64,000 nucleotides of DNA from Candidatus Hydrogenedentota bacterium. Its GTDB lineage: Bacteria > Hydrogenedentota > Hydrogenedentia > Hydrogenedentales > SLHB01. The number at the start of each line of letters is the position of its first letter. The first letter of the stretch is position 1. Where the stretch lies: positions 10,955 through 74,954 of the forward strand of contig BTVY01000036.1 of NCBI GenBank assembly GCA_045863335.1, in the 5' to 3' direction. The translations under genes and the position numbers were made by a program. The notes below the pieces were generated by a model. It was not told the DNA's origin. It ran no database searches and saw only the letters and a list, made by a program, of their open reading frames with translations. Below, in pieces: positions 24,818 to 39,652 of the stretch.

Positions 24818-24867
24818 GCCTTCTGTGTAGTACTGTGCGGCGTAGGAAGTTACACAACGCTAATCTC

Positions 24868-25887: not shown

Positions 25888-25979
25888 TAGTAATTCCCTC
25901 TCCAAATCTTCTACACGCGGCGCAGAACGGTGCTTGTGAGAAACAACGGCCAACCGGCCCGCACTGGAGCGAGTCAAGC

Positions 25980-27347
25980 TTACAGCCCCCAATAGTCGGT
26001 TTCGGGGCTGGCTACGCCAGAGGTCCAGCGGTTCCAGTCCTTAAGAATCCGCTTTACGAGGGGGCATCGTCGGGCGTCCACAATCTGGTCGGCCAGAGCC
26101 TCGGCTTTTGATCGCAGTTCTAGCGTGCGGGCGTTCTGCCGGCAAATGCGCGCTTCGATGAGTACGGCGCGCAGTTGACACTTGAGATTTCCGGTACGAA
26201 CACCGTATGCGGTGGCTTGTTCGAGATAATCTCGTGCAATCTCATAGTCGCCTTCGAGCTTCGCAAGACCCGTCAAGGTGAAATCGCCGAGATCCCCCCA
26301 GAGTCCTTCAGACTCCTGGCCCTGGCGAACTTGTCGCAGCGTTTCCCGCGCCCGTACGAACTCTCCCTGCACGCGGTCCACCTCGGCAAGTCCTACCAGA
26401 ATGAGGCCAGCCACGCGCAACTCTGCCATTCCGCCAATTTCCACTTCCAATGCGGTTTCGAGCAGGGAACGCGCGTCTGCGGACTGCCCCCTCGCCAACT
26501 TGGTCATACCGCCGTACAAGTAAATCAGCGCTTTTGCGCCGCTCCCGCCTGCGCCAGCCGAAAGCTCCACACCGCGACGGAACCACGGCTCCACCTCCGG
26601 TGAGGGAAAGAGGCCCGCGTACCGGTTGCAGCACAGGAAGTCGCTGCAGGTCATCTGTGTGACCCGCTCGTAGCGAATGAGCTCCTTGAGATGCTCCTGA
26701 CCGTATGCCCCGGCTACCAACTGACCGCATCGGACGCTGGTAAACGCGGAAAACCGCCGAAGATCGATCCTTGCGGATCGCTCGAGGTGCAAGAAGTTTT
26801 CATTTGCCATGTCCAGTACAGCCTTTGCATCGCCATATCGCGCACTCTTGTATAGTTGGTATCCATCCCACGCGATCGCTCGATTGGAAGGGCGCGGCGG
26901 CCCTTCGACCTGTTCTTGCATGCCGATCCAGTCCACGACGCGCCGAACGTGGGGACTTGCCGAATCTGGGCGGACGCCAGAGGCGACTGCGACCTCCAGG
27001 TTCCGCAAGCGCTCAGTGAAGTACTCCGCGGCCCGGTGCAGATCCCGGCCGGACCCGTAGATACCGATTTCGTCGTTTCCAACCACCCACCGGTTTGCGC
27101 CCTCGGAAAACTCCCAGACCTGGACGGCGAAGCGGCGCCAAGCGTTTCCGTATCGAATGTCCAGATGATGTATGGGGCGTAACGCGGCAGCGCACTTCGT
27201 TGCGAGATCTGGACATGACTTCTCCGCCACCTGGGGCGCTGCGGAGAGGGCCTCGGGAAAAAGGCCCAGGTTCGTGAAAAAATCAAAGTGCTCGTTCGTG
27301 CCGGTTGGTGGCATTGTTCGATTCAGTTGCCGTGAATGAGTGTCCAT
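25980..27347 (-). CDS. TPR-like protein with possible N-terminal HicB-like domain; third gene of the Pup-like operon
   Basis: TPR-like helices (LAEVDRVQGEFVRARETL, ARGQSADARSLLETAL). GGAGG precedes ATG at 27347, which overlaps the upstream gene's end. Confidence 0.7.
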   Translation of the reverse strand: MDTHSRQLNRTMPPTGTNEHFDFFTNLGLFPEALSAAPQVAEKSCPDLATKCAAALRPIHHLDIRYGNAWRRFAVQVWEFSEGANRWVVGNDEIGIYGSGRDLHRAAEYFTERLRNLEVAVASGVRPDSASPHVRRVVDWIGMQEQVEGPPRPSNRAIAWDGYQLYKSARYGDAKAVLDMANENFLHLERSARIDLRRFSAFTSVRCGQLVAGAYGQEHLKELIRYERVTQMTCSDFLCCNRYAGLFPSPEVEPWFRRGVELSAGAGGSGAKALIYLYGGMTKLARGQSADARSLLETALEVEIGGMAELRVAGLILVGLAEVDRVQGEFVRARETLRQVRQGQESEGLWGDLGDFTLTGLAKLEGDYEIARDYLEQATAYGVRTGNLKCQLRAVLIEARICRQNARTLELRSKAEALADQIVDARRCPLVKRILKDWNRWTSGVASPETDYWGL

Positions 27348-30037
27348 TGTCTCACTGACTCCTCCAATTCGGGGATATAGCCCGCCCGACACGGATTGGA
27401 ATGGGTAGCATTCGAATCAATCTCTTGCGACTCATGGGGCACCTCATCATCCTGACAAGAGTCCGGCAAACGGCCGAAGGCTCTGGGGTAGGTTCTGCCA
27501 CCACCGAGCTCAAAGGGAAAGGTAGTTGGTGCGTCATCCGATCGCGCGTGTTCGGCCCGCCTGCGCAACCAGTCCAGGGCCATGTTTACGCTCTCATTCT
27601 GGAGGGCATAGTTTGCCGTTCGGTCGGTCGCCTCCAAATCGCGATTGATTCGGGCCAAGGCCCGTTCGCACCGTCCTCGCTGTTCTCCGTCAAACGTGGA
27701 ATCTTCCAACGCGATACGCAGTTCGAGCAATGCCGTCCGTAGCCGGTTGCTGCGCTCGCGGAAGCTATTGCTTGACTGAGCGTAGAGATGCATGGCCTCG
27801 CCGCGATAGTGCCGAATACGCGGACTTCCGCAGAGCAGCGGACGATCTTCGGCCCATTGTGAAACTGCCAGGCACCGCTGAAAATCACCTGCTTCCGCGG
27901 AGAACTGGATGGCGAAAGCTACCCCCATTTCCTCCCTGTCGCGCCAGCCGCTTTCGTCGAAAACCTCGCCCGCGACTTCGGCTAGACAAGCAATGAGGCG
28001 CGACGTGCGGGAAGGTCCGATGATCTGTTGCACTGGACGCAGGCAGAAGCCGAAAGGACCAAATACCCCGTAGTTCCGGGCGAATAGCCGGAACGCGGTT
28101 TTCACGAGCGGTCTCGCGAAAGCGAAGCGCACATGCTCGTGGTCGAACCGGCGATGGTTTACCTGAATCAGACGTGCCACCGATCGCGCGCTCTCCTCCG
28201 CCACATCCGCGAAGGATCGAACCGAGATCTGTTGATCGATAAACGCCTGATCCCGCAAGAGACGAATTAGGCCCCTCTCGCGACCCTGGTCCACGTGCCA
28301 AATACCAAAGCATGGCTCCAGAATCTCGCGGCTTAGAAGCGGAGAAAGAGGATCCTGTTGATTGGACGGGACGGGCTCGCGAGAACCACCACGCATCAGC
28401 CCACCGACCGGTTGCGTCCGCCCCATGGACTCGCGTGGAGCCCTGTTTTGGCGGTCGGAAACCGTCGGATTGGGAGTGCGTTCGCCCAAGTACACATCGA
28501 TGGAGGGGAGAAGTCGCCGCAACCCGCTCGTTTCAGATCGTGCTCTCGAAACGGTACGCAGTTCCATCCATGTGGACTCGGGCTTGTCGGGATCAGTCAA
28601 CGCCAGGGTCAGGCCATTCTTTTTGTCAACCAGACTGTCCCACGTGCACGAGTATAGGCCGGGGTCTGCTGCATGCTCGGCAACGAATTGACCGCGAATA
28701 CGTGCCCGCGGCGAGGCGAGTTCAGAGACGCCGGCAGCGCGATCGGGCAGCGCGACACCAAATTGCGCGTACTCCAGCGCGCCTGCCGCATCGAGCTTGT
28801 CAAAAAGACCATCACCAAGTAATGGCCACCGGGTGTACAACTCCTCCGCCTCCGCTTTGAGCACCGAGTATTTCGCTAGCGTGTCCTCGTCCATCGCGTG
28901 ACGGAGGGACACGCGGCTAGCCATTGCGGGGTCGTATTCTTCGCGATCGTCATCTTCAGGAAAGTAAGGTGTATCCGTTGCCGCTTCAGAATCTGGCTCC
29001 CGATGCGAATCGAGCTTTCCGAAGGCGGCATTGGCGTGTCGCAATCGTTCGGCGTCGAACTGGTACCGCGCCGCCAGCCGGTGGAGGTAGGCACGAAGTA
29101 TCACAGGATCGTGGGATGTGGCCAGGGCGGCCGGTCCGGTTCTCATGCAGTCGATAGCACGGCCGAGCAAGTTACCGATATCGGCAAGGTCATCGGAGTC
29201 GGCGTATTGTTGCAGGATTGGAAGTACCTGCTCTATACACTCGAACAACGAAAGTGCACCTTTCGTGGTAGAAGCCGTGCAGGTGCCGTCAAAATCACGA
29301 TTGAACGCCAGCGCGGCAGCGTGAATATCTTCAAAATGGGGGATTTCTTCCCATTGAAGTCCTGCTTCAATGGCGGCCACCATGAGCGTAAGCCAGCCGA
29401 AACCGAGCGACACGCTCAGGGGCGATCGACTGCACCCGGCACTGGTCGCGATTTGAAGACGGCACCGTCCGGAACTTTGTACATTCTTATAGGAAAACAG
29501 GCTTTGAAGGGTTCGGCATTCGACGTGGGCTGACCAGCACGGCTCCAGCGAACCGAAACGAAGTGCGCCGGCGCCGTGGAAGGGCAATCCGATTACATAC
29601 AGGGTCCGGAGGTTTTCCGAAATCATGGGCAGGTGTGGCGAGCGAAGGTCGATATTGAAATGCGTGCCGAACGTTTTTCCGGTTGCGTAGCAGGCGCCCC
29701 CGCACGACATCTCGAGAGTCAAGCGCGGGTCGCTTGTACGTAGCATTCCATCGACTGTCTCGTAGACCCACTGCCTCAATCGGAGATGCTCCGTAACCGC
29801 ACCGCGGTTGGAGTGGGTCTCGGCGGTCCGAAGTTCGATCTTCTCACAGTCCCAGCCAACCGAAGCGCCGGACGGAAGGAAGCAGCCGTTGCCTCGCAGG
29901 GCCGGCAGGTTCGGCGTGCTGTCCATCAATCGCCCCACCAGCTCTTGCACGCACAAGGATGGAACCAGGCGGTGACCCTGGCTATGCACGGTCACCACCT
30001 GTTCCTGCTCTGTACCGCGGTACCGCAATTGCGACAC
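27323..30037 (-). CDS. PafA/Dop (Pup ligase) fold protein with about 400-aa C-terminal extension
   Basis: Collinear matches to PafA motifs: GTEQE (GIETE), FLPSGASVGWD..KIELRTAET (FLRNGARLYLD..HPEYATAEC), TFGTHFN (SYGCHEN), GAG, RLQI (RLHV), GLFDKL (GIFDLL), PRARIRGQFV (TRARLRGEFI), W...DP. Confidence 0.8.
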   Translation of the reverse strand: MSQLRYRGTEQEQVVTVHSQGHRLVPSLCVQELVGRLMDSTPNLPALRGNGCFLPSGASVGWDCEKIELRTAETHSNRGAVTEHLRLRQWVYETVDGMLRTSDPRLTLEMSCGGACYATGKTFGTHFNIDLRSPHLPMISENLRTLYVIGLPFHGAGALRFGSLEPCWSAHVECRTLQSLFSYKNVQSSGRCRLQIATSAGCSRSPLSVSLGFGWLTLMVAAIEAGLQWEEIPHFEDIHAAALAFNRDFDGTCTASTTKGALSLFECIEQVLPILQQYADSDDLADIGNLLGRAIDCMRTGPAALATSHDPVILRAYLHRLAARYQFDAERLRHANAAFGKLDSHREPDSEAATDTPYFPEDDDREEYDPAMASRVSLRHAMDEDTLAKYSVLKAEAEELYTRWPLLGDGLFDKLDAAGALEYAQFGVALPDRAAGVSELASPRARIRGQFVAEHAADPGLYSCTWDSLVDKKNGLTLALTDPDKPESTWMELRTVSRARSETSGLRRLLPSIDVYLGERTPNPTVSDRQNRAPRESMGRTQPVGGLMRGGSREPVPSNQQDPLSPLLSREILEPCFGIWHVDQGRERGLIRLLRDQAFIDQQISVRSFADVAEESARSVARLIQVNHRRFDHEHVRFAFARPLVKTAFRLFARNYGVFGPFGFCLRPVQQIIGPSRTSRLIACLAEVAGEVFDESGWRDREEMGVAFAIQFSAEAGDFQRCLAVSQWAEDRPLLCGSPRIRHYRGEAMHLYAQSSNSFRERSNRLRTALLELRIALEDSTFDGEQRGRCERALARINRDLEATDRTANYALQNESVNMALDWLRRRAEHARSDDAPTTFPFELGGGRTYPRAFGRLPDSCQDDEVPHESQEIDSNATHSNPCRAGYIPELEESVRQWTLIHGN

Positions 30038-30049
30038 GTCGGTTCCCTC

Positions 30050-30250
30050 TTACTCGCCGCCGGAGTAACGACGGCTCTGAACGAATTCCCTGCTCTTGCC
30101 CGACATCGATTCGTCGACGACATCCATGCCCTTTTTCAGCAGATCTTCCGTTCGCGCATTGTTTGGATTGATCTCGGCGCCGAGGTCCACCGATTCCGTA
30201 CCTCCTGTCGACTGTTGCATGCAGTTTGGTTCCATCAGGGTTTTGCTCAT
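30050..30250 (-). CDS. Pup-like (prokaryotic ubiquitin-like) protein, 66 aa
   Basis: AAGGAG RBS; polar N-terminus; TEDLL..GMDVVDE...REFVQSRRYSGGE resembles Pup TDDLLDEIDDVLEE..EDFVRAYVQKGG[QE]; 12 nt upstream of the PafA-like gene. Confidence 0.8.
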   Translation of the reverse strand: MSKTLMEPNCMQQSTGGTESVDLGAEINPNNARTEDLLKKGMDVVDESMSGKSREFVQSRRYSGGE

Positions 30251-30337
30251 AGATAACTCCTTTTCCTTTGGATCGGCCGGCGCGCGTCCGTTGGTCCGCC
30301 ACAACCGGTAGCGGCGGCTACGCCCGGCGAAGAAATG

Positions 30338-30354
30338 AGCAATCGCTGTGCCAG
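30338..30354 (-). promoter_or_regulatory. Sigma54 (-24/-12) promoter of the Pup-like operon
   Basis: Minus strand reads CTGGCAC-AGCGA-TTGCT, a perfect match to TGGCAC-N5-TTGCW. Confidence 0.85.
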
Positions 30355-30521
30355 CATGGCATCGGGCTGAAGTTGTTGGAAATACTCCCGAGCGGGCTGC
30401 AGGCGGGACGGCGGATGGTTGAGTTTTGCTCGGTGAGTTACTGGCATGCAGCCTGCCATTCCGTTGATTTAATTGGGATCTGCCGCTAGTATTGGGAAAC
30501 TCAACTGGCTGCGGGGGCAGT

Positions 30522-32195
30522 ATGGAATACGCCGTTCTGGAATGCCGGCAAGAAGGACGAGAGCGCGTCTACCGTGCGACGCACGTAGATGCCGCCCACG
30601 TCTTGCAGTGCGCGCGTGAGGGCCGCTTGAGCCTTTTTTACATCAGTGAGTCTCACGCTTCCGATCTTCAGAATACGGTACCGAAAATCCGGGACATGGG
30701 CCGGAAACTTGCCGGAAAAGAATTGTCGCGGTATCTGGCCAAACTTGCGGAAAACGAAGTCGGAATTCTGAAAGGCGCGTACGACAGCACGCGGCAACTG
30801 AAGCGGAGCGTGAGTGACGCGGTCAGGAAGTGCCACGAGCAACAACACGCGATCGTAGCCTTCATCACGCTGAAGCCGGCGCTGTTCGCTCAGGCGTGGA
30901 AAAAGGAAACCGCCAACGCCTCTCGCGACGACCGCATCGAAGCACGGGACTTGGAGTCTCCGGTTGAACGGACACTGCGCACCTTGGGCGAGATGGACGT
31001 TCCGGAGAGTCTTGTCAAAGCGTATATTGGCAATTCGCCGTCAATCCGGCTGGTCCGCCAACTCATTCTCCGCGCAAGCGAACATGCCTACCCGGTGCTG
31101 ATCCAGGGTGAATCGGGAACCGGCAAAGAGATAATCGCGCGCAGCATTCATGACTTGAGCCGTGACCACGGCCGCGGCCCGGAATTCCGGCCCATCAATT
31201 GCAGCGCCATTTCCCCGTTCCTGTTGGAGTCAGAGTTGTTCGGGCATCTCAAAGACTCCTCGGATCGCGCGACCAAAGACCGCGACGGGCTATGGAAATC
31301 CGCCAATAATGGCACGATCTTTCTCGATGAAATCGGGGACCTCAACCTGGACCAACAAGCAAAGATACTGCGGGTTCTAGACACGAACGCGGTGAAGCCG
31401 GTCGGCTCTGACGAGGAAGTTCCGGTGCGCGCCCGCGTGATCAGCGCGACCAATCGTGACCTCTATAGCATGATCCGCGACGGCCGTTTCCGGGAAGACC
31501 TGTTCTTCCGTCTGAGCGTAATCCCCATTCAAACCCCGCCGTTGCGGGAACATCCCGAAGATATCCCGGTCATTGCACGTTGGCTGTGGACGGACATCGC
31601 CGGGAAATCGGCGCCTTCGCTTTCGGGTGACATTCTGGCCTGCCTCAGCGAATACACGTGGCCAGGAAACGTGCGAGAACTAAAATCCATTCTGTCTTCG
31701 CTACGCGGATATTTCGGCGTCCGCGCCCGGACCCGGGATCAGTTTGAGACGGTCATGTTTCTCAAAGGGAAGCCTGCAGCCATTGCGACTCCCCCCACCG
31801 CGCGACAATCGGCAACCCGCTCACGGGCCGAATCGTTCCAACATCTCCAACGGGTCGACGGCGTGCTGCGGGGCATCGAAGTCTTTCTGAAAGCGTTAAA
31901 CGGCCGCCGCGCGATTCGGGATACGATGGACGCGCAAACCGCGCTCGGCGAGCGGCACCGCGAGCTGGCACATCTGTGTCAGAAACCTTTGCTGTTCGTG
32001 TCGCCCAAGACGTTTGACGCGGTTTACGGCGCCTGCGGGAAGATCGCGTATCTTTTGGATTCCCTGCAGACCGATTCTACGTCGTCGCCGCGACTTGCAA
32101 CGCGGCAACTGGCCAAGGAAGTTCAAACTACGCGCGCCAAGGTGCAAAAACAGATTGACGGGCTCATGCCGAAACCGCGAAACCAGCGGAGCTAG
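30522..32195 (+). CDS. Sigma54-activator-family AAA+ protein lacking GAFTGA
   Basis: GESGTGKE, INCSA, ESELFGH, FLDEIGDL, FREDLFFRL and WPGNVREL. The GAFTGA position reads DSSDRA, and no Fis-type HTH is evident. Confidence 0.9.
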   Translation: MEYAVLECRQEGRERVYRATHVDAAHVLQCAREGRLSLFYISESHASDLQNTVPKIRDMGRKLAGKELSRYLAKLAENEVGILKGAYDSTRQLKRSVSDAVRKCHEQQHAIVAFITLKPALFAQAWKKETANASRDDRIEARDLESPVERTLRTLGEMDVPESLVKAYIGNSPSIRLVRQLILRASEHAYPVLIQGESGTGKEIIARSIHDLSRDHGRGPEFRPINCSAISPFLLESELFGHLKDSSDRATKDRDGLWKSANNGTIFLDEIGDLNLDQQAKILRVLDTNAVKPVGSDEEVPVRARVISATNRDLYSMIRDGRFREDLFFRLSVIPIQTPPLREHPEDIPVIARWLWTDIAGKSAPSLSGDILACLSEYTWPGNVRELKSILSSLRGYFGVRARTRDQFETVMFLKGKPAAIATPPTARQSATRSRAESFQHLQRVDGVLRGIEVFLKALNGRRAIRDTMDAQTALGERHRELAHLCQKPLLFVSPKTFDAVYGACGKIAYLLDSLQTDSTSSPRLATRQLAKEVQTTRAKVQKQIDGLMPKPRNQRS

Positions 32196-32223
32196 GAACT
32201 GAGGGGATAGCTGGGGTCGGCGT

Positions 32224-32299
32224 TTGGAGTTCCGGCTTCAGCCGGTTTGTATTCCCGAGCTTCACGCGCGCACGGGACCGCGTGAACGCGGAACTCCGA
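32224..32299. repeat. REP doublet upstream of RAYT
   Basis: TTGGAGTTCCGGCTTCAGCCGG and the inverted CCGCGTGAACGCGGAACTCCGA. Confidence 0.75.
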
Positions 32300-32322
32300 A
32301 CGCGGTCCGGGTAGTTTGACCC

Positions 32323-32944
32323 ATGTCACAGCCGGAATACTGTTGGCGTCGGCTCACGACCAAACAGCGCGAGGAGCTGCTGGCCTGGCGCAAGGAACGC
32401 GGGCATCCGTGGCACTCGCCGCCGCATCGTCCGAATTCCGGCCATGATCGCTTCCACGTCACCGCCGCGTGCTATGAGCATCGGGCTTTCATCGGCCACA
32501 GCCCAGAGCGCATGGACACGTTTTCACGCAATTTGCTGGCCGTGTTCGCGTCGCACGCCAGCCAGACGTTCGCATGGTGTGTGCCTGCCAAATCATTATC
32601 ACGCGCTGGTCGAAGCGGCGGACGTACTCAGTCTGTTGCGTGCGTTGGGAAAACTGCACGGGCGCACGTCGTATACCTGGAACGGCGAAGAGAATTCGCG
32701 GGGGCGCAAAGTCTTCTTCCGCGCTGCCGAGCGCGCGATGCGTTCGGATCGGCACTATTGGGCCACGCTGAATTACGTTCATCACAACCCGGTACATCAC
32801 CACTACGTTGAGCGCTGGACAGACTGGCCGTGGAGTAGCGCGCGGGAGTATCTCGCGCAGACCGATCCTGAAGAAGCTAAGCGAACCTGGCGCGAATACC
32901 CGCTCGGCGATTACGGCAAGGGATGGGATGACGCGGAGATGTAG
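32323..32944 (+). pseudogene. REP-associated tyrosine transposase (RAYT/Y1 family), frameshifted
   Basis: HSPPH, FHVTAAC, AWCV|LPNHYHAL (HUH motif), NYVHHNPV and DWPWSS. An extra C near 32584 splits it over two frames. Confidence 0.85.
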
Positions 32945-32968
32945 TGTGGAGCATTCGTGCGACCCGAG

Positions 32969-32990
32969 CCGCCTAAAGGCGGAACTCCAA
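32969..32990. repeat. REP downstream of RAYT
   Basis: CCGCCTAAAGGCGGAACTCCAA, same family as 32224-32299. Confidence 0.75.
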
Positions 32991-33087
32991 GCAATTCTTA
33001 TTTGCACTACTTGACCCGCAGTCCATACCATTGCCTCGACGTGGGGTGGGTGTCGCGACTGCGGCTCGACAAGTGTGAGGGATCGAG

Positions 33088-34965
33088 ATGGCTGTGGAAT
33101 CCGGGGACAGCAAGGCGACTGATTTATCCTCTTTCGCGCTTTTACCCAACGCAATTCCATATGAACTTCGCATCGGTGTAACCGGCCACCGGAAGCTTGC
33201 GGACCTAGATGCAGTGCGCCGGGCGGTGGATAGGTCGTTGGACCACATCCAACACGTCCTGGAGTCTGCGGCGGCGCAGCCCCACGGGGCGGAAGCGGGC
33301 GGACAGACGTGGAGCAAATGGTTTGACCAGGCTTTGCTGGCGGCGTTGCGGATGGTGTGGCGAGAGGTTCCGCCTTCGCCGGCAGTCGTGGATCCCTCCA
33401 TGCGGACGCCGTTGCGGTGGTGCGCGGTGTCGGCGCTGGCGCAGGGGGCGGATGCCATCGTGGCGGAGGCGGTGCTGGCGCGGGCGGAATCGCGGTTGCG
33501 GGCGATCCTTCCGTTTGACGCCGACGAATACGGCACGGATTTCACGAGCCCGGAACATCTCGATACCTTTCATCGTTTGCTCGCGCGCGATCCCGGTGCG
33601 CGTGTGGTCGGTACGGTTGATGGTACGAAAGCGACCCGCAACCGCCTGTACCGCGAAGCGGGGGAGGCGGTGATTCACGGGTGCGACATCCTGATTGCGA
33701 TCTGGGACGGCGAACCGGCGAAGGGCGAAGGCGGCACTGGGGACATCGTCCAGCATGCCTTGGAACATGGCCGGTTGACACTCTGGGTTAATGCGAAGAA
33801 CCCAGACTCGCCGGTTAAACGGCTCGTGCCGCGCAGCGAGATCGAACGCGAGTCGGCAAAACCGATCCCGTGGACGACCGCCGAAGTCCCCGCGACAGCC
33901 AAAGCGTTGAGCCTTGGGTTCCACCAGATCTCCGCGTACAACCGGGACCTGGCGGTCGGCACGGACGCAGTCGCGGAGACGTTTGCGAAAAAACGCACTA
34001 CGATGCTGGAGGCGGCCCGGAAAAGCAACCTGCCCGAAACGGCGCTCGGGGAAGGGACCTGGACCGCGCTGGCCCAGTATTGTCGTGCCGATCAACTCGC
34101 CCTGCGCTACCAATCGCTTCACCTCCGTAGTGCGAAGGGGCTGTACCAACTCGCCGCGTTCGGCGTCACCGTCTCCGTAATTCAAGTCCTGTTCTTTCCC
34201 GCCTGGTACGGACTCGTCGCGCTGGAAGTCGCCGCCATGCTGGCCGTACTCATCATCCTGCGCATCTCGCGAAAGGAAAACTGGCACGAGAAGTGGCTGC
34301 ACGACCGCCACTTTGCCGAGCGCTTGCGCGGCCGGATGTATCTCGACCTGCTTGGCGAAGACTCCGCGCCAGGCGACGCGCGGGCGGCTGCATCGCTGGC
34401 ATTCTATAGCCGGCCCGCGGACTGGGTGACGCTGGCTTTTGCGAATCTGGAACCGCCGTCGACTCGGCCCGCTCAGAGCGGTGCGGAATGGATCGCACTC
34501 CGCGATTTCATTTACGCAAACTGGGTCAACGCCCAGGCGAAGTACCACATCGACAATGCGGAACGGAAGGTGGGGCCGCCAAAACGCACCCACTGGATCG
34601 GGGCGGGGTTATTCACCGCGACGCTGTTGGCAGCGCTGTTGCACGCCATCGGCGTGGGTCACGGCTCCCACGGAGACCACCACGGCATCTCCACCGTCAC
34701 GGCGCTCCTATTTGCGACGACCGTGCTGCTTCCCCTCTGGGGCGCAACCTTGCACGCCATCGACACCCTGCACGATTGGCACCGCATCGCCAGCCGTTCC
34801 GAACGCATGGGCCGCCAGCTCCAGAACGTCGCTGAGGGTCTCAAGAATGCCGCGACTCCAGAAGAAATTCGGCGCCAGGTCCGCACGGCCTACGAGATCA
34901 TGGCCACCGAAAACCAGGAATGGGCCGCGTCGCTGGCCTTCCGTGGACCGACTTTGCCTGCGTAG
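33088..34965 (+). CDS. SLOG domain fused to two SLATT-like 2TM effector modules
   Basis: IGVTGHR, SALAQGAD, CDILIAIWDG...GGTGDIV (SLOG); TM pairs followed by W..DRHFAERLR, and WVNAQAKYH...ENQEW (SLATT-like). Confidence 0.8.
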   Translation: MAVESGDSKATDLSSFALLPNAIPYELRIGVTGHRKLADLDAVRRAVDRSLDHIQHVLESAAAQPHGAEAGGQTWSKWFDQALLAALRMVWREVPPSPAVVDPSMRTPLRWCAVSALAQGADAIVAEAVLARAESRLRAILPFDADEYGTDFTSPEHLDTFHRLLARDPGARVVGTVDGTKATRNRLYREAGEAVIHGCDILIAIWDGEPAKGEGGTGDIVQHALEHGRLTLWVNAKNPDSPVKRLVPRSEIERESAKPIPWTTAEVPATAKALSLGFHQISAYNRDLAVGTDAVAETFAKKRTTMLEAARKSNLPETALGEGTWTALAQYCRADQLALRYQSLHLRSAKGLYQLAAFGVTVSVIQVLFFPAWYGLVALEVAAMLAVLIILRISRKENWHEKWLHDRHFAERLRGRMYLDLLGEDSAPGDARAAASLAFYSRPADWVTLAFANLEPPSTRPAQSGAEWIALRDFIYANWVNAQAKYHIDNAERKVGPPKRTHWIGAGLFTATLLAALLHAIGVGHGSHGDHHGISTVTALLFATTVLLPLWGATLHAIDTLHDWHRIASRSERMGRQLQNVAEGLKNAATPEEIRRQVRTAYEIMATENQEWAASLAFRGPTLPA

Positions 34966-35039
34966 CCCGCGTATTCTGGGCGACTATCGCGCCGCAGCGA
35001 AGCGTCGAGCGGAATGCCCGGCGAAATTCGATTTCGAGA

Positions 35040-35048
35040 TGCTATAAT
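35040..35048 (+). promoter_or_regulatory. Extended -10 element
   Basis: TGCTATAAT about 50 nt upstream of ATG 35096. Confidence 0.55.
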
Positions 35049-35095
35049 GGCCGACCGGGGTCACGAACAGCGTTTTGGGACGGTGGGGATTCATC

Positions 35096-37618
35096 ATGGG
35101 CGTGAAGAAGATCGCAGTGCTTGGTGATGTCTGCGCGGACGTTCTGGAGGTATCAACGCCCTCCCGCAAACGGACGCTGAGCGAAACGGTATCGAACTGG
35201 CGTCTCTATCCGGAAACATACCTCCACATGCTCCCCGGTGGCGCGTTGTTGCTGGCGGAGTTCATTCAAGCAGCGTGTGACGGTGAGGTTGTCGGCTTGG
35301 ACGGTGTCGACCTCGACAAGCCTCAGCACGACCGTATCCTCCAATCCCACCTGAAACTCGGCACCTTCCCAAAGACTCTCGGCAGCAAAGAAACCACGTT
35401 GCGGCTTCGACGGTACGCGGGATTCTCCGGCTCCGAAAATGCGCCACTGCTACCGTGTATCGCAAGCGCTAAGGACGTCTCGCTCCTCGTGCTGGACGAT
35501 CCGGGCAATGGATTCCGGTACGAGCCGTCTGCATGGCAAGCTGCCTTACGCACTTTGCCGAAAAGATCCCCGATTATCCTCAACATGTGCCGTCCACTCA
35601 TGAAGGGGCAATTGTGGGACTACCTTGCCAAGTCGTACCGCGACAATCTGCTGCTCGTCTTGAGCGCGGACGATCTACGGACGGTAGGCGTGCAGATCAG
35701 CAAGCGCCTATCCTGGGAGCGTACGTCGAAAGATCTCGTTTGGCAGCTGGAGAACAACGTATTGCTTCGTCCGCTTCGTCGATGCGGTCATGTGATTGTG
35801 CGATTTGGCATTGACGCCGCCATATACACGCGAAACACAGGAAAGACGTCGCTGTCCCAACTGTGTTTTGATCCGTCCTCCGTGGAAGACGGCTTTGCGG
35901 AAACAATGCCCGGCACCATGCCGGGATTGACCTATGCCTTGGTCGCATCGCTCGCCGCTGCGATAGACCGGACCGGCAATTTCGAGGAACTGACAAGCGG
36001 AATTCACGCCGGAATTCGTAGTGCGCGCGCTTTGCTCCGTACCGGATTCAAAGTCGAGAACGCGGCCCCCCGTTATCCCATTCCGGAGATCTTTTCACCA
36101 ACCGACTCGGACAAAACCCGTCTCGGTTGTGTCGAAATCAGTCTTACCAAGTCCGGAAAGGATGCCGATCCGGGGTTCTGGCGGATACTGGACCAACTCA
36201 GCGAAAAACGATTGGAGGAAATGGCCTTCCGAATCGTTCGCCAAGGCGTGGAGAGGTCGCTCGGCGAGGTACCGTCCGGCCGGTTCCGCCATCTTCATAC
36301 GGTCGACCGGGCCGAGATTGAGCACTTTCGCGCGATTCAGAATCTGATGCGGGAGTATGTAAGCCGCGAAAAAACCAAGCGCCCTCTTTGCATTGCGGTA
36401 TTTGGGCCTCCCGGTGCTGGGAAGTCTTTTGGGGTCGCGGAAGTCGCAGAAACGGTGGCACCGGGCAAGGTCCGAATGATCGAGTTCAATGTCTCTCAAT
36501 TCGATTCCCCGGACGATCTCATCGACGCGCTGCACAAAGTCCGAGATTCCGTTCTCGAAGGGCAAATTCCGTTAGTGTTCTTCGACGAGTTCGATTCCGG
36601 CTACGGCGGAAAACTGGGGTGGCTGAAGTACTTCCTCGCGCCCATGCAAGACGGTAAGTTCAGGGACGGCGAATCGATTCACCCCATTGGCAAATCCATC
36701 TTCGTGTTCGCCGGAGGCACTCGCGACTCGTTCGAGGCATTCTCCGCGGATGGGGTCCCAGGAACGGCCGAAAGTGCGGGGTGGTTCCGCGATGCTAAAG
36801 GTACCGACTTCGTGAGCCGCCTGCGCGGTTTCGTGGACGTGCTCGGCCCAAATCCGCGCGACGAGAAGGATAAGGTGTTTATCGTTCGACGCGCCATGTT
36901 GCTTCGATCCCTCTTGGAACGCCTCACACCCCAGTTGGTCGACGACGAAGATTATGCGCGTGTTGATCCGGGCGTGCTGCGCGCACTCATCCACGTGCCA
37001 GATTACCGCCACGGCATACGCTCCATGGAAGCGATACTGGATATGAGTTCCTTGTCGAACGCCCTGTCCTTCGAGCAGGCGGCGCTTCCTCCAGCAAACC
37101 AACTACGACTCCATGTGGACCCGGAGATCTTCGAACGATTGGTACTTCAGGACGCTTCGTTTGGCGCCGTCCGGGAGCAGCTCGCACAGGCAATTCATGA
37201 ACGCTTTGTCCGAGATCAGGCCGGAAACCGGCCACAGAGTGACGAGGCCATGCAACCGTGGGATGAATTGCTGGAGACCTACAAGGAAGCCAACCGGCGC
37301 CAAGCGGACCACATCCCGGAGAAGCTGAAAGCCATTTCCTGCAGTTTCACTCCTTTCACTCAACAACCAGTTTCCCCCATTAACTTCTCGAAAAAAGAGA
37401 TCGAGATAATGGCGCGAATGGAACACGACCGGTGGGTACGAGAACGCCTGGAGGAAGGGTATACCCCAGGTCCCAGAAATCCGATCAAGAAAACCAGTCC
37501 ATATTTGGGATCGTGGGAGACACTGGACGACAAGGTGAAGGAATTTGATCGCAATACAGTTCGGGCCATTCCGGATCTGATGACCAGCGTAGGTTTCCGG
37601 ATCTATCGGTTGAGCTGA
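35096..37618 (+). CDS. PfkB-like N-terminal region + AAA ATPase + C-terminal RyR domain protein
   Basis: IAVLGDVCAD/PGGA; GPPGAGKS; VFFDEFD; RyR motifs LAQAIHERF, NRRQADHI, ARMEHDRW..ERLEEGY, PYLGSWETL. Confidence 0.85.
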   Translation: MGVKKIAVLGDVCADVLEVSTPSRKRTLSETVSNWRLYPETYLHMLPGGALLLAEFIQAACDGEVVGLDGVDLDKPQHDRILQSHLKLGTFPKTLGSKETTLRLRRYAGFSGSENAPLLPCIASAKDVSLLVLDDPGNGFRYEPSAWQAALRTLPKRSPIILNMCRPLMKGQLWDYLAKSYRDNLLLVLSADDLRTVGVQISKRLSWERTSKDLVWQLENNVLLRPLRRCGHVIVRFGIDAAIYTRNTGKTSLSQLCFDPSSVEDGFAETMPGTMPGLTYALVASLAAAIDRTGNFEELTSGIHAGIRSARALLRTGFKVENAAPRYPIPEIFSPTDSDKTRLGCVEISLTKSGKDADPGFWRILDQLSEKRLEEMAFRIVRQGVERSLGEVPSGRFRHLHTVDRAEIEHFRAIQNLMREYVSREKTKRPLCIAVFGPPGAGKSFGVAEVAETVAPGKVRMIEFNVSQFDSPDDLIDALHKVRDSVLEGQIPLVFFDEFDSGYGGKLGWLKYFLAPMQDGKFRDGESIHPIGKSIFVFAGGTRDSFEAFSADGVPGTAESAGWFRDAKGTDFVSRLRGFVDVLGPNPRDEKDKVFIVRRAMLLRSLLERLTPQLVDDEDYARVDPGVLRALIHVPDYRHGIRSMEAILDMSSLSNALSFEQAALPPANQLRLHVDPEIFERLVLQDASFGAVREQLAQAIHERFVRDQAGNRPQSDEAMQPWDELLETYKEANRRQADHIPEKLKAISCSFTPFTQQPVSPINFSKKEIEIMARMEHDRWVRERLEEGYTPGPRNPIKKTSPYLGSWETLDDKVKEFDRNTVRAIPDLMTSVGFRIYRLS

Positions 37619-37625
37619 TCTGCAA

Positions 37626-39347
37626 TCAGGATTGCTGCATTCCCGCCACTACCAACCGCGGTATGTTACGGACCGCGCTCCGATCGTACTCCTTGATGGC
37701 GTCCGGCAGTTCGTCATAGGGAACGAGATACGGTGTTTGCCGCCGGCCCACGTCTTTTTCTCCCAACGTCCAACCCGCCAGAAACCGCTCCGCGTTCCAG
37801 CGTGCGTGCTCCATACGCGCAAGTGTTTCCACCCGATCCTCGGGAATCTCCGGCGTCTCCTCCAGTTCCGCGATTGTTCGCACGCGGTACCCCAATGCGC
37901 GAAGCTTCACGGGGATGTGGTCGGCCTGTTGCCGATTGGAGTCCTTGAATTCCGGCGACAACCGATCCCAATCTTCTGTTGATGGACTCTTCTGGCCGCC
38001 GCGCTCCCGCTGTTTGGCCACGTAGTCCTCGTGGATCAGGCGGGCCAGCTTGTCCAGCCCGTCACCCTCCACCATTTCCCAAGAACACGACGAACGCATC
38101 GATCCGAAGCAGTACATGTTCTGCCCATTCGTGGACGGGGAGAACAAAGCCGCGAGCCCGGAATCCTGGTTTATCCGCACGAACACCGGTACGCTGTCTC
38201 GTTCGACATGACGGCGCACGCTCAGTGCGTACTGCGCGTTTCGCGAATCGTTGTCAAAGCAGATGGCAACACTGCAGATTTCGGCGGGGTCCTGCGCGAT
38301 CTCGGCGATACGGCGAAGCGTAAGTGAATCGTCGCATTCGGCGTGGACAAACTCGATATCGCAGACATTGTCCAGCTGGGGGTACCTGACATATAGCCCC
38401 CGCCTTCTCGCCTCCGCCGAATGGTCGACAACCGTGACAGCCAGCCGTTTCCCGTTGGCAACGTGGCCGATCTTTGCTGCTTGAATGAGTAGACTCTCAC
38501 CCATCTGCCCCAAACCAAATAAAACCAATCGGATTCGCCGGGGGTCATCCGGGCCAATGTATTCGCGATCCAGGGGATGATCGCGCAATAGAAGGCGTGA
38601 AGCGTTTTCGTAGGAGTTGAAGACCGACACGTTGAACTTCTGTCCGGTCTCGCGGAGCATCGGGTGATCTTTGAACAAAGCCGCAAACGTGAAGTCCATC
38701 ACCTGGACTAGACAACAAAGACGGTGACGGTTGGCGTGCGTTTGGCTCTCATCGAGTATTTCCTTCGTGCGAAGCGCGATCTCGATATTGACCCCGTCGT
38801 TTCCGCAAACCGCTATGGCCGTGCGCGCCCGTTCCACATGCGCCCGGCGAAGGATCGCCTGATGCGTTGCGTCTCCCGTCACCAAGAGAATCCCGGAGTC
38901 CCGCGCGACCGTAAGGCCATCGGCATGAGGATTGGATTCGATGATCGCCACTTTGTGCCCCCGGCTTCTGCATTCCTCCGCCAACTGCAAGCCCCTGCGC
39001 CCGAGTCCGCAGATCACCACATGATTCCGGGCGAGCGCGAGTTGAAGTCCACGCCAGCGATTCCGGATGAATTCAACGAAGATCCGCAGAACCGCCGACG
39101 CCGCAGTCAACGGCGCAAGAATCCGCGCCACTTCCAGTTGCCACGGAACCGGACCTTCCACGCCTCCGGATTCCATGGTAAAGAGCTGCCAGTCCAGGTA
39201 AACGACATCAAGCACGGTGAGGTTGTATCCCTTCAATTCACCGTGCCGGACAAATCCAACATATCCGAGTACCAACGAGGCTGCTGCAGCGACCGCGATC
39301 ACAATCCATCCACGGCTGACCCTCCACAGGCTTCGAAGTAGATTCAT
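37626..39347 (-). CDS. Membrane protein with TrkA-N/RCK-like domains and C-terminal RyR domain
   Basis: TM-loop-TM N-terminus; HVVICGLGRRG, VTGDAT and LFGLGQMG; RyR motifs LARLIHEDY, NRQQADHI, ARMEHARW..ERFLAGW, PYLVPYDEL. Start uncertain. Confidence 0.85.
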   Translation of the reverse strand: MNLLRSLWRVSRGWIVIAVAAAASLVLGYVGFVRHGELKGYNLTVLDVVYLDWQLFTMESGGVEGPVPWQLEVARILAPLTAASAVLRIFVEFIRNRWRGLQLALARNHVVICGLGRRGLQLAEECRSRGHKVAIIESNPHADGLTVARDSGILLVTGDATHQAILRRAHVERARTAIAVCGNDGVNIEIALRTKEILDESQTHANRHRLCCLVQVMDFTFAALFKDHPMLRETGQKFNVSVFNSYENASRLLLRDHPLDREYIGPDDPRRIRLVLFGLGQMGESLLIQAAKIGHVANGKRLAVTVVDHSAEARRRGLYVRYPQLDNVCDIEFVHAECDDSLTLRRIAEIAQDPAEICSVAICFDNDSRNAQYALSVRRHVERDSVPVFVRINQDSGLAALFSPSTNGQNMYCFGSMRSSCSWEMVEGDGLDKLARLIHEDYVAKQRERGGQKSPSTEDWDRLSPEFKDSNRQQADHIPVKLRALGYRVRTIAELEETPEIPEDRVETLARMEHARWNAERFLAGWTLGEKDVGRRQTPYLVPYDELPDAIKEYDRSAVRNIPRLVVAGMQQS

Positions 39348-39652
39348 GACACAACTCCACCGTGATGCCCTGAGCATCATTTCCCCGATTTCCCCTGATG
39401 CGCCAATCTCGCGTGTGGCCACGGGACTATACCATAGACCAGCATTCGCTACAGTCCCGTCTCTTCGACGGTTCCTGGCCCGGCCAATTCCAAACTTTCG
39501 ACGATTCGGCAGCGAATCAGATGCCGTATTGATTCTGCTGCGTCTTTGCCGTACCTCGCGTATAATGCCTCTGGGCACGAACGAAGCTGGGGCTAGGGCC
39601 GCTCCCCGTACCGGGGTGCGCGGGTCAGACGTCAATGCTTGGGGGATCCGTC

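What the first reader, a model, noticed from the sequence alone, without database searches (positions are those of the whole stretch)
25980..30354. Orphan, sigma54-driven pupylation-like operon (Pup-like tag, PafA-fold protein, TPR protein) without proteasome genes
Seen: a perfect sigma54 promoter, then a 66-aa ORF with a strong RBS ending FVQSRRYSGGE, then 12 nt later a 904-aa ORF whose first ~490 aa are collinear with PafA/Dop motifs, then an overlapping TPR gene. No prcA/prcB, arc/mpa or second ligase/deamidase is present in 64 kb. Known: Pup ending in GGE is ligated to lysines by PafA without needing Dop, and canonical loci cluster with the proteasome; non-actinobacterial Pup/PafA loci have been noted by comparative genomics but are poorly characterised. 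Inference: an inducible, non-degradative protein-tagging system, possibly anti-phage given the island context, with the helical/TPR parts selecting targets. This is the best candidate for a new system here.
Basis: partly seen in the sequence, partly recalled or inferred. Interest (0 to 1): 0.9.

Follow-up and report, generated by a model that had tools for sequence, protein, structure and literature searches.

The report
Proteasome-free Pup-like tagging operon
A rare three-gene operon in a sludge bacterium pairs a small Pup-like tag with a very divergent PafA/Dop-type enzyme and two TPR-like modules, in a genome with no proteasome, so it probably tags proteins for some purpose other than degradation.

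Summary
On the minus strand lie an exact sigma-54 -24/-12 element (30339-30353), a 66-aa ORF ending GGE (30050-30250), a 904-aa ORF 12 nt later (27323-30037) and an overlapping TPR gene (25980-27347).

The first ~495 residues of the 904-aa protein fold as PafA/Dop: VIA Z 36-39.5, against 20.7 for the next family. Alone they pass Pfam Pup_ligase (28 bits, cut-off 25). A complex model puts the tag's C-terminal half in the groove and its last residues at the active site (0.87; controls 0.00). A like complex is solved, so this pass may come from memory.

The own genome (99.4% complete) has no 20S proteasome, no Mpa/ARC and no second Pup_ligase.

The operon sits in a ~20 kb variable island that a sister genome lacks. 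The island also holds RyR, DUF4062 and WD40 genes. The enzyme's C-terminal helical module recurs in a TIR-STAND protein. The TPR partner appears to share contigs with distant enzyme homologs (3 of 5).

Caveats: one catalytic motif is incomplete ([QH]x4D lacks the Asp). The adjacent AAA+ regulator lacks GAFTGA. No Pup or UBact HMM matches the tag. Tag conservation could only be seen beside close relatives. Ligation, targets and any defence role are untested.

Verdict: a new variant of a known kind.

The parts
30339..30353 (-). sigma-54 type -24/-12 promoter element (TGGCAC-N5-TTGC), about 90 nt upstream of the tag's ATG
   Evidence: Exact match. Invariant in L009 and L010. rpoN is present in the genome.
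30050..30250 (-). 66-aa Pup-like tag gene ending GGE (coordinates include the stop), with a strong RBS
   Evidence: Window versus L010: codons 27-66 show 6 synonymous and 1 conservative change; codons 1-26 show 4 synonymous and 4 non-synonymous. Residues 31-66 dock on the enzyme in the model. No Pup or UBact HMM match.
28553..30037 (-). PafA/Dop-like (Pup_ligase family) catalytic region of the 904-aa protein, residues 1 to about 495
   Evidence: AF2 model pLDDT 86.4, pTM 0.87. Foldseek 4bjr_B E 1.5e-18. VIA Z 39.5-36.5 to Dop and PafA against 20.7 to YbdK-like GCS2. PF03136 28 bits, cut-off 25. Motifs.
27326..28360 (-). C-terminal all-alpha, TPR-like module of the 904-aa protein (residues about 560-904), with a conserved end motif (..PELEE..R.WT..)
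   Evidence: Model pLDDT 74.4, with residues about 20-270 of the fragment above 80. The best structural matches are TPR domains at Z 8-11, below the bar for helical repeats. Homologous to the C-terminus of the TIR-STAND protein P0089.
25980..27347 (-). TPR partner gene (455 aa from ATG 27347; the longest ORF reaches GTG 27392); overlaps the enzyme gene by 25 nt
   Evidence: TPR_MalT and TPR_12 matches, below their cut-offs. 5 homologs at 46-91% identity; 3 of them share source and longest-contig length with enzyme homologs. Alignment A5. Atlas structural neighbours are TPR sensor regions.
30492..32195 (+). divergently transcribed AAA+ protein with a sigma-54-interaction domain but no GAFTGA loop and no recognised HTH; possibly the regulator or another component
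   Evidence: PF00158 183 bits. DSSDRA stands where FleQ has GAFTGA. The same loop is present in G105. Conserved beside the operon in L010, G105 and G107. No family found for either end.
25900..45830 (.). about 20 kb variable island that holds the operon and conflict-type genes
   Evidence: In G106:C14 the MinD-like gene (window ..25887) is followed directly by the homolog of window ~45850. The right flank 30400-37700 has no real match in G103, G104 or G106.

Best explanation
This is a proteasome-independent, Pup-type conjugation module.

Proposed mechanism. The 66-aa protein is an intrinsically flexible tag. Its C-terminal half forms helices that lie in a groove of the PafA/Dop-like domain, and its terminal Glu reaches the active site. 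As in PafA, the enzyme would use ATP to activate the side-chain carboxylate of that Glu and pass it to an amine, most likely a lysine of a protein. The enzyme's own TPR-like C-terminal module and the co-conserved TPR partner would choose or present the target, or switch the enzyme on. Because the tag already ends in Glu, no deamidase is needed. Because the genome has no 20S proteasome or Mpa/ARC, the tag cannot be a proteasome degron. The operon is read from a sigma-54 promoter and belongs to a ~20 kb variable island of conflict-type genes, so a role in stress or invader response is the likeliest setting.

Shown: gene order, the fold, family homology, selection on the tag, absence of proteasome genes, and the island.

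Modelled: tag docking.

Inferred: ATP-dependent ligation, lysine targets, the target-selecting role of the TPR parts, induction, and the biological role.
For: Fold: Z 39.5 (9cku_G, rmsd 2.5, 356 aligned), 38.6 (5lrt, 2.8, 410) and 36.5 (4bjr_B PafA-Pup, 3.1, 411), against 20.7 for the next family. Foldseek E 1.5e-18.

Family: the N-terminal 520 aa score 28 bits on PF03136 (cut-off 25). 39 of the 45 aligned relatives match PF03136.

Motifs kept (motif definitions from PMC2588565, passages read): GhExE as GTEQE, the catalytic-loop Asp (D63, invariant in 45 sequences), E68, E73, and [HQ]x[NH] as HFN. There is no Dop-loop-sized insert.

Tag: 66 aa, ends GGE, and lies directly upstream of the enzyme gene. 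Its C-terminal half is under purifying selection.

Complex: ipSAE 0.80, 0.87 and 0.88; best of 3 controls 0.00. The mark was reached by 58 of 80 solved complexes and 2 of 110 mismatched pairs. Runs agree in at least 49% of contacts. Partner pLDDT is at least 48. Tag residues 56-66 touch enzyme residues 10, 12, 14, 16, 63-66, 116-126 and 197.

No 20S proteasome, Mpa or second Pup_ligase in a 99.39% complete genome.

The TPR partner has the same source and longest-contig length as enzyme homologs for 3 of its 5 homologs.

A different small-ORF-plus-Pup_ligase cluster without 20S exists in the same order (G016).

Island.
Against: - The full-length protein gave no Pfam or NCBIfam hit at E<=1.
- PDB sequence and profile searches gave nothing relevant.
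- The [QH]x4D motif has Q195, but Ala stands where the Asp should be.
- Relative to the Pup_ligase consensus, SPR is CWS, and the alpha-loop region that separates PafA from Dop is shortened. Catalysis could therefore be altered or lost.
- The tag matches no Pup or UBact model.
- The tag's only sequence relatives are 86-95% identical. Its presence beside the 37-59% identical enzyme homologs could not be checked.
- PafA-Pup and Dop-Pup complexes are solved, so the complex score may reflect likeness.
- G107, one of the three genomes with the operon, also carries a canonical Pup_ligase plus 20S-beta contig.
- The neighbouring AAA+ protein lacks GAFTGA.
Confidence: 0.55

Rival explanations
1. The system is an immune (anti-phage or anti-mobile-element) system. 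The TPR-like module and the TPR partner sense an invader protein and unleash tagging of invader or host proteins. This is a special case of the best explanation with a defined role.
For: The operon lies in a ~20 kb variable island absent from G106. The island also holds AAA+RyR, TrkA_N+RyR, a 1249-aa DUF4062 protein, a WD40 protein and a weak SLATT_3 hit. The sister genome G105 carries a TIR-domain gene right after the regulator gene. The enzyme's C-terminal module is homologous to the C-terminal, sensor-position region of the TIR-NACHT/STAND protein P0089 (profile E 9e-14; domains; pairwise E 3e-6 over residues 38-365). Distribution is patchy: 4 of 135 genomes of the phylum including the own genome, and 2 of 5 others in the genus.
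Against: PADLOC gives no hit for tag, enzyme or TPR partner. No relative was found in viral contigs, phage records or plasmids. No known defence system was identified in the island by name. Island residence is only guilt by association.
Confidence: 0.25
2. The PafA-like domain is catalytically altered or dead. It binds the tag as a regulatory or scaffolding partner, or performs a different chemistry, for example through the cysteines that line the site. It does not ligate the tag to lysines.
For: The Asp of [QH]x4D is lost (A200), SPR is replaced by CWS, and the alpha-loop is shortened. Five cysteines are invariant in all 8 sequences of alignment A1 at or near active-site strands: C64, C112, C116, C167 and C202. 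Residues 63-66 and 116-119, which include C64 and C116, touch the tag's C-terminus in the model.
Against: GhExE, the catalytic-loop Asp, E68, E73, H126 and N128 are retained and invariant in all 8 A1 sequences. A few clearly Pup_ligase-positive relatives also vary at the residue after the His. Strong conservation of the site argues for activity of some kind.
Confidence: 0.15
3. The small ORF is a precursor peptide. The enzyme joins a small amine to its C-terminal Glu, or otherwise matures it, as a peptide natural-product pathway rather than a protein tag.
For: Enzymes of this superfamily join glutamate carboxylates to small amines (GCS, GS; PMC2588565, passages read). The tag's N-terminal half is variable and its C-terminal half is constrained.
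Against: The fold is specifically PafA/Dop, including the small C-terminal domain (Z 36-39 against 21). The docking uses a long bihelical interface like that of Pup. I saw no transporter, peptidase or other tailoring gene within the three-gene operon. Two TPR protein-binding modules fit protein targets better.
Confidence: 0.07
4. The tag simply serves a canonical Pup-proteasome system encoded elsewhere.
For: G107, one of three genomes with the operon, has a 2.8 kb contig with a canonical Pup_ligase (324.8 bits) next to a 20S beta subunit (299.2 bits).
Against: The own genome, 99.39% complete with 0.94% contamination, has only HslV, no Mpa/ARC above cut-off and no other Pup_ligase. G105 shows none either, but it is only 72% complete. 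The public record of G107 is labelled Nitrospiraceae while GTDB places it in this genus, so that short contig may be foreign.
Confidence: 0.03

Closest known systems
Actinobacterial pupylation: Pup with the ligase PafA and the deamidase/depupylase Dop (Pup-proteasome system)
   Same: Same two-domain enzyme fold. Pfam family match. GhExE, the catalytic-loop Asp and HxN are kept. A small tag of 50-90 aa ending G[EQ] is encoded directly beside the enzyme (criteria from PMC2588565). The tag docks in the groove with its C-terminus at the active site in the model.
   Different: About 15-18% identity to the solved enzymes. The Asp of [QH]x4D is missing and the alpha-loop is shortened. There is one enzyme only. 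The genome has no Dop, Mpa/ARC or 20S proteasome. A ~400-aa TPR-like extension is present, plus a dedicated TPR partner and a sigma-54 promoter. The tag matches no Pup HMM.
Proteasome-unlinked Pup/Pup-ligase pairs of Plesiocystis and Rhodopirellula (Iyer, Burroughs and Aravind 2008, PMC2588565, passages read)
   Same: Non-actinobacterial. The Pup-like gene is adjacent to a Pup-ligase homolog, with no linkage to proteasome genes. A regulatory rather than degradative role was proposed.
   Different: Those ligases carry a 4-TM insertion after core strand 4 and are linked to a membrane-protein gene. The model of this enzyme shows a single soluble helix there (residues 136-149). This one has a C-terminal TPR-like module and a TPR partner instead.
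Uncharacterised ~820-845-aa Pup_ligase + TPR fusion proteins from metagenomes (for example P0013, P0043, P0091)
   Same: A Pup_ligase domain followed by C-terminal TPR repeats. 7 of the 45 aligned relatives carry TPR_12.
   Different: They score 217-287 bits on PF03136, against 28 here. They keep the RLH / GE[SD] type motifs. Their gene neighbourhoods could not be seen. I found no paper on them.
G016 cluster in the same order: Pup_ligase paralog, then a 70-aa ORF ending SGQ, then a second Pup_ligase paralog
   Same: A small G[EQ]-ending ORF abuts a Pup_ligase homolog, and no 20S subunit was found in that 88% complete genome.
   Different: It has two canonical-scoring enzymes (about 192 bits each) and a Gln-ending tag, the layout expected of Dop-Pup-PafA. 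The tags show no detectable similarity.
UBact, the Pup-like tag of some Gram-negative phyla (recalled; only listed, not read)
   Same: A small, Pup-like C-terminal tag outside Actinobacteria.
   Different: NCBIfam and Pfam scans of this tag returned no family at all. As I recall, UBact loci include proteasome genes, and this genome has none.
Ubiquitin-like conjugation modules in bacterial immunity (Bil, CBASS Cap2; recalled). Kaur et al. 2020, PMC7159879, in one passage read, mention a Ubl system coupled to a Pup-conjugation system in Thermofonsia and Planctomycetes.
   Same: This is a 'works like' comparison only: a small protein conjugated to targets by an enzyme encoded in a conflict island.
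   Different: The chemistry and folds are unrelated (E1/E2 and beta-grasp, against a GS-fold ligase and a disordered tag). No immune function has been shown here.

Membership tests
Pup_ligase family (PF03136; PafA/Dop) | Profile HMM match above the curated cut-off | tested here: met
   The N-terminal 520 aa alone score 28 bits, E 1.5e-6, against a cut-off of 25. The full-length 904 aa gave no hit at E<=1. 3 of 8 close family members hit when scanned whole.
Pup_ligase family (PF03136; PafA/Dop) | Two-domain PafA/Dop fold: a GS-like beta-sheet cradle plus a small C-terminal domain | tested here: met
   Z 39.5-36.0 to Dop and PafA chains over 356-412 residues at rmsd 2.5-3.2. The next family scores 20.7. 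Foldseek E 1.5e-18.
Pup_ligase family (PF03136; PafA/Dop) | GhExE on core strand 1 (PMC2588565) | tested here: met
   GTEQE, with Thr at the 'h' place. E10 and E12 align with the consensus GxETE.
Pup_ligase family (PF03136; PafA/Dop) | Conserved catalytic Asp in the loop between strands, and acidic residues on strands 2 and 3 | tested here: met
   D63 and E68 are invariant and E73 is at least 90% conserved in the 45-sequence alignment. Role taken from PMC3511204 (passages read).
Pup_ligase family (PF03136; PafA/Dop) | [HQ]x[NH] on core strand 4 | tested here: met
   H126-F-N128.
Pup_ligase family (PF03136; PafA/Dop) | [QH]x4D on core strand 6 | tested here: not met
   Q195 is present, but the fifth residue after it is Ala (A200, invariant in all 8 sequences of A1), where relatives have D or E. 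I therefore call the protein a divergent homolog of the family, not a PafA ortholog.
PafA as opposed to Dop | No Dop-loop, and a PafA-type alpha-loop (PMC7947786, passages read) | tested here: inconclusive
   The catalytic Asp is at position 63, which leaves no room for a ~37-aa Dop-loop before it. The alpha-loop region is shortened by a gap of at least 7 columns and resembles neither enzyme. Dop and PafA chains are close in Z.
Pup (PF05639 / TIGR03687) | Profile HMM match | tested here: not met
   No family for the tag at E<=1 or E<=10. The own-genome search with PF05639 did not pick up this ORF.
Pup (PF05639 / TIGR03687) | 50-90 residues with a C-terminal G[EQ], encoded next to a PafA homolog (PMC2588565) | tested here: met
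   66 aa, ends GGE, stop codon 12 nt before the enzyme's start.
Pup (PF05639 / TIGR03687) | Bihelical core plus an extended C-terminal tail that enters the ligase active site | tested here: inconclusive
   Model only: score 0.87 against 0.00 for the best control. The mark was reached by 58 of 80 solved complexes and 2 of 110 mismatched pairs. Contact agreement at least 49%, partner pLDDT at least 48. Tag residues 31-66 form the interface. Like complexes are solved.
Canonical Pup-proteasome system | 20S alpha/beta subunits, the Mpa/ARC ATPase and Dop in the genome | tested here: not met
   Own genome: only HslV; TIGR03689 best 138.8 bits against a cut-off of 504.75; no other PF03136 match.
UBact | Match to a UBact model in NCBIfam (I recall that one exists) | tested here: inconclusive
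   The NCBIfam scan returned 0 families for the tag. I did not confirm that a UBact model is in that release.
sigma-54 promoter with a cognate bacterial enhancer-binding protein | -24 GG / -12 GC consensus, and rpoN present | tested here: met
   Exact TGGCAC-N5-TTGC, conserved in relatives. Sigma54_DBD 214.6 bits in the genome.
sigma-54 promoter with a cognate bacterial enhancer-binding protein | GAFTGA loop in the adjacent activator (requirement recalled) | tested here: not met
   DSSDRA aligns with the GAFTGA of FleQ, also in G105. No HTH_8 was found. 26 other Sigma54_activat proteins in the genome could serve the promoter.
Known anti-phage defence systems (PADLOC 2.0) | Model match for the operon proteins | tested here: not met
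   0 families for tag, enzyme and TPR partner. Only the AAA+ protein matches RtcR/PspF-type models.

The most novel reading that the evidence does not exclude
This would be a pupylation-type immune or stress effector. A sensor-coupled PafA-like ligase is held in check by its own TPR-like module and a TPR partner. The same C-terminal module serves as the sensor end of a TIR-STAND protein. On sensing an invader or damage signal, the ligase would tag invader or host proteins with a Pup-like peptide. It would do so in a cell with no proteasome, and possibly with an active site re-tooled around five invariant cysteines. That would be the first Pup-type conjugation used in conflict, and a third, independent 'ubiquitin-like' logic in bacterial immunity.
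Probability: 0.2. Interest if true: 0.85.

Novelty: new variant of a known kind. Interest (0 to 1): 0.62.

Why it matters
Pupylation is understood almost only as the degradation signal of Actinobacteria. This clade is very rare. Only 7 cluster representatives out of 1.84 billion score E<=1e-30, and only 4 of 135 genomes of its phylum carry it.

It shows the Pup/PafA pair rebuilt in several ways:
- a single enzyme and a ready-to-ligate GGE tag;
- two TPR-type modules;
- no proteasome;
- a sigma-54 promoter;
- residence in a variable island, next to domains typical of conflict systems.

If it ligates, it gives a compact two- or three-gene protein-tagging system with built-in target selection. 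That would be useful for asking what pupylation does when it cannot mean degradation, and as a possible tool. If its module exchange with a TIR-STAND protein reflects shared sensing, it links Pup-type tagging to bacterial immunity.

Tried and rejected
- Pfam and NCBIfam on the full-length enzyme: nothing at E<=1. Only the N-terminal part alone passed.
- PDB sequence search with the protein and with profile A1: nothing relevant.
- PDB sequence search with the tag: only chance-level rows.
- Two metagenome-contig scans (A1, P0005): no confirmed locus.
- Viral contigs, plasmids and phage records: no relative. P0043 against plasmids found only two actinobacterial records, with matches of 29-36% identity and no annotated feature under them.
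- Word-index search with the tag: only itself and one 86% relative.
- ESM Atlas for the tag: unnamed clusters at chance-level scores.
- hhalign of this tag against the G016 tag: no similarity.
- BLASTP of the enzyme's C-terminal module against the TPR partner: no similarity.
- Foldseek on the C-terminal module: no hit at E<=0.001. VIA gave TPR domains at Z 8-11 only, under the bar for helical repeats.
- PADLOC: nothing for the three operon proteins.
- Pfam on the two ends of the AAA+ protein and on the N-terminal 280 aa of the TPR partner: nothing.
- tRNA genes in the window: none. Repeats within each island edge region: none. No integration signature was found, and no repeat shared between the two edges was sought.
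- Sigma-70 promoter and terminator scan: at shuffle level.
- RNA evidence: a run on record as RNA holds 0.83 of the sampled words. Its contigs cover 25929-27259, 27345-28876 and 29118-30519. These are contigs, and one runs through the promoter into the divergent gene. This does not show transcription.
- Literature searches for PafA or pupylation with anti-phage, defence, TPR or sigma-54 terms: no description of such a system. Supplementary files of PMC2588565 and PMC7947786 (alignments, residue lists) could not be seen and may bear on the motif comparison.

Full report
**1. What is there**

All features lie on the minus strand.
- An exact TGGCAC-N5-TTGC element sits at 30339-30353.
- About 90 nt downstream, behind AAAGGAAAAGGAG, a 66-aa ORF starts at ATG 30250. 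It ends ...EFVQSRRYSGGE, with its stop codon at 30050-30052.
- Twelve nucleotides later, behind GAGGGA, a GTG at 30037 opens a 904-aa ORF that ends at 27323.
- A TPR gene overlaps its end. Its homologs are 447-456 aa long, and a GGAGGAG lies upstream of ATG 27347. The likely product is therefore 455 aa (25980-27347), which overlaps the enzyme gene by 25 nt.

The promoter pattern is not enriched in the window when one mismatch is allowed: 5 matches found against 4.94 expected. Only two matches are exact. The second (61881-61895, -) precedes a pilin-like ORF, a classic sigma-54 target as I recall. The element is invariant in two related loci while neighbouring bases vary. The genome has rpoN and 27 Sigma54_activat proteins.

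**2. The enzyme**

The full-length protein has no Pfam, NCBIfam or PADLOC match and no PDB sequence match, even as a profile. Its relatives tell more.
- A word-index search found 7 homologs.
- An exhaustive profile search of 1.84 billion representatives found 502 proteins at E<=1e-3, but only 7 at E<=1e-30.
- 39 of 45 aligned relatives match Pup_ligase PF03136.
- The window's own N-terminal 520 aa, scanned alone, score 28 bits (cut-off 25).

An AlphaFold2 model of residues 1-520 is confident (pLDDT 86.4, pTM 0.87). Its best matches are the PafA-Pup complex and Dop:
- Foldseek E 1.5e-18.
- VIA Z 39.5 to 9cku_G (rmsd 2.5, 356 aligned), 38.6 to 5lrt (2.8, 410) and 36.5 to 4bjr_B (3.1, 411).
- Z 20.7 for YbdK-type GCS2, and about 13-18 for GCL and GS.

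The match runs to about residue 491, so it includes the small C-terminal domain peculiar to PafA/Dop.

I compared the motifs with those defined by Iyer et al. 2008 (PMC2588565, passages read).
- GhExE is present as GTEQE.
- The catalytic-loop Asp (D63) and E68 are invariant across 45 sequences, and E73 nearly so.
- [HQ]x[NH] is present as HFN.
- [QH]x4D is incomplete: Q195 is there, but Ala replaces the Asp.
- The consensus SPR is CWS.
- The alpha-loop region that separates PafA from Dop (PMC7947786, passages read) is shortened.
- The catalytic Asp is at position 63, so there is no room for a Dop-loop.
- Five cysteines at or near active-site strands (C64, C112, C116, C167, C202) are invariant in all 8 sequences of alignment A1. 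I cannot explain them.

I therefore call the protein a divergent homolog of the Pup_ligase family, not a PafA ortholog.

**3. The tag**

No Pup or UBact model matches the tag. It does meet the descriptive criteria of Iyer et al.: 50-90 aa, a C-terminal G[EQ], and a gene adjacent to a PafA homolog.

Its only sequence relatives are 86-95% identical. Even so, the pattern of change speaks for a translated gene with a constrained C-terminal half. Between the window and L010, codons 27-66 carry 6 synonymous and 1 conservative change. Codons 1-26 carry 4 synonymous and 4 non-synonymous changes.

A complex model (enzyme 1-520, ATP, 2 Mg, tag) scored 0.80, 0.87 and 0.88, against 0.00 for the best of three controls.
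- The mark was reached by 58 of 80 solved complexes and 2 of 110 mismatched pairs.
- Runs agree in at least 49% of contacts, and partner pLDDT is at least 48.
- Tag residues 31-66 form the interface.
- Residues 56-66 touch enzyme residues 10, 12, 14, 16, 63-66, 116-126 and 197.
- The tag helices lie on enzyme residues 303-321 and 392-422.

PafA-Pup and Dop-Pup complexes are solved, so this pass shows likeness and may come from memory.

**4. The other modules**

Residues ~560-830 of the enzyme form an all-alpha repeat (pLDDT 74.4 overall, above 80 in the core).
- Foldseek finds nothing at E<=0.001.
- VIA's best rows are TPR domains at Z 8-11, below the bar for helical repeats.
- The whole module, including the conserved end motif, is homologous to the C-terminal region of P0089 (profile E 9e-14; pairwise E 3e-6 over residues 38-365). 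P0089 is a 1037-aa TIR + NACHT/STAND protein, and in such proteins that position is the sensor end.
- Many distant relatives of ~820-845 aa are Pup_ligase + TPR fusions.

The separate TPR protein has 5 homologs (46-91% identity). Three of them share source and longest-contig length with enzyme homologs: 9621/ENA with P0007, 196321/JGI with P0008, and 30939/Logan with P0006. This indicates a conserved gene pair down to 37-44% enzyme identity. The inference is indirect, because the contigs themselves could not be read.

**5. Genome context**

The own genome (99.39% complete, 0.94% contamination) lacks the canonical partners.
- Its only Proteasome-family match over the cut-off is HslV.
- Nothing reaches the Mpa/ARC cut-off.
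- It has no other Pup_ligase.

The operon is patchy. It occurs in 4 of 135 genomes of the phylum including the own one, and in 2 of 5 others in the genus.

In the sister genome G106, the MinD-like gene that ends at window 25887 is followed at once by the homolog of window ~45850. The stretch 30400-37700 has no real match in G103, G104 or G106. So window ~25.9-45.8 kb is a ~20 kb variable island. Besides the operon it holds:
- the AAA+ gene;
- a 625-aa protein with a weak SLATT_3 hit;
- AAA+RyR and TrkA_N+RyR proteins;
- a 1249-aa DUF4062 protein;
- a WD40 protein.

G105 carries a TIR-domain gene right after the AAA+ gene. No tRNA gene was found in the window, and no repeat within either edge region. 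The locus recurs in sludge and bioreactor metagenomes: 20 rows from 14 studies, one of which may be the source.

**6. Caveats that cut against a tidy story**

(a) The divergent AAA+ protein has a strong sigma-54-interaction domain (183 bits). Where FleQ has GAFTGA it has DSSDRA, also in G105. It shows no HTH. It may not be the activator of this promoter, or it may have another role.

(b) G107, one of the three genomes that hold the operon, has a 2.8 kb contig with a canonical Pup_ligase and a 20S beta subunit. Its public record is labelled Nitrospiraceae, so the contig may be foreign. I cannot exclude a proteasome in that lineage.

(c) Catalysis is inferred, not shown.

**7. Comparison and novelty**

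Pup/Pup-ligase pairs unlinked to proteasome genes were described in Plesiocystis and Rhodopirellula in 2008, with a 4-TM insertion in the ligase (PMC2588565). Kaur et al. 2020 mention in one passage a Pup-conjugation system coupled to a Ubl system (PMC7159879). In the same order as this organism, G016 has a cluster of Pup_ligase, a 70-aa ORF ending SGQ, and a second Pup_ligase, with no 20S subunit detected. The absence of a proteasome is therefore not new.

What is new is this combination:
- an extremely divergent single enzyme with a cysteine-lined site;
- a GGE tag;
- a TPR-like module exchanged with a TIR-STAND protein;
- a dedicated TPR partner;
- a sigma-54 promoter;
- residence in a variable island.

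My searches found no paper describing it.

**8. Verdict**

This is a real and rare system, best read as a proteasome-independent Pup-type tagging module (confidence 0.55). A conflict or stress role is plausible but untested (about 0.2-0.25). It is a new variant of a known kind.

Noticed in passing
window 61881-61895 (-) and ORF 61288-61896 (-): The only other exact TGGCAC-N5-TTGC match in the window lies just upstream of an ORF with a prepilin-type N-terminus (..GFTLIELM..). It is probably a sigma-54-driven pilin gene.
   Followed up: partly
window 30492-32195 (+): This AAA+ protein has a strong Sigma54_activat domain. It has DSSDRA in place of the GAFTGA loop, no recognisable HTH, and an N-terminal 175 aa of no known family. 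It ranks 24th of the genome's 27 such proteins by score.
   Followed up: partly
window 32323-32944 (+): Two overlapping ORFs in different frames (162 and 166 aa) together look to me like a frame-shifted IS200/RayT-type tyrosine transposase. That reading rests on a recalled motif. Pfam gave no hit for either ORF.
   Followed up: no
window about 24620-24820 (intergenic, between the beta-helix and MinD-like genes): Three short segments of ~30-40 nt recur at dozens of places in the three genus genomes that show them (G105, G106, G107) at 85-100% identity. They are REP-like dispersed repeats.
   Followed up: no
window 33088-45316: The island cargo comprises a 625-aa protein with a weak SLATT_3 hit (E 0.0058, below cut-off), an 847-aa AAA+RyR protein, a 669-aa TrkA_N+RyR protein, a 340-aa protein of no family, a 1249-aa DUF4062 protein and a 238-aa WD40 protein. 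None matches PADLOC convincingly.
   Followed up: partly
L038:1681-2874 (G105:C406): In the sister genome a 397-aa TIR-domain protein (TIR_2, 65.4 bits) is encoded right after the AAA+ gene. The window has the broken transposase-like ORFs at that place.
   Followed up: partly
L024:28-1716, L014:218-430 and L014:430-1845 (G016:C333): A second kind of proteasome-less cluster occurs in the same order: a Pup_ligase paralog (562 aa), a 70-aa ORF ending TSGQ whose stop overlaps the next start, then a Pup_ligase paralog (471 aa). No 20S subunit was found in that 88% complete genome.
   Followed up: partly
L019 (G107:C504:1-2803): A 2.8 kb contig carries a canonical Pup_ligase (324.8 bits) directly followed by a 20S beta subunit (299.2 bits). 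The MAG's public record is labelled Nitrospiraceae. This may be a binning artefact or a real second system.
   Followed up: partly
P0089 (metagenomic protein, 1037 aa): A TIR + NACHT/STAND protein whose residues 557-889 are homologous to the enzyme's whole C-terminal module, including the ..EE.VR.W.. end motif. This points to module exchange between a Pup-ligase homolog and an NLR-like protein.
   Followed up: partly
window 27323-30037 (-) and 25980-27347 (-): Both proteins carry unusually many invariant cysteines. The enzyme has C64, C112, C116, C167 and C202 at or near active-site strands. The TPR partner has C52, C207, C234, C239, C240 and C428. A metal site, redox control or thioester chemistry are all open.
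   Followed up: no
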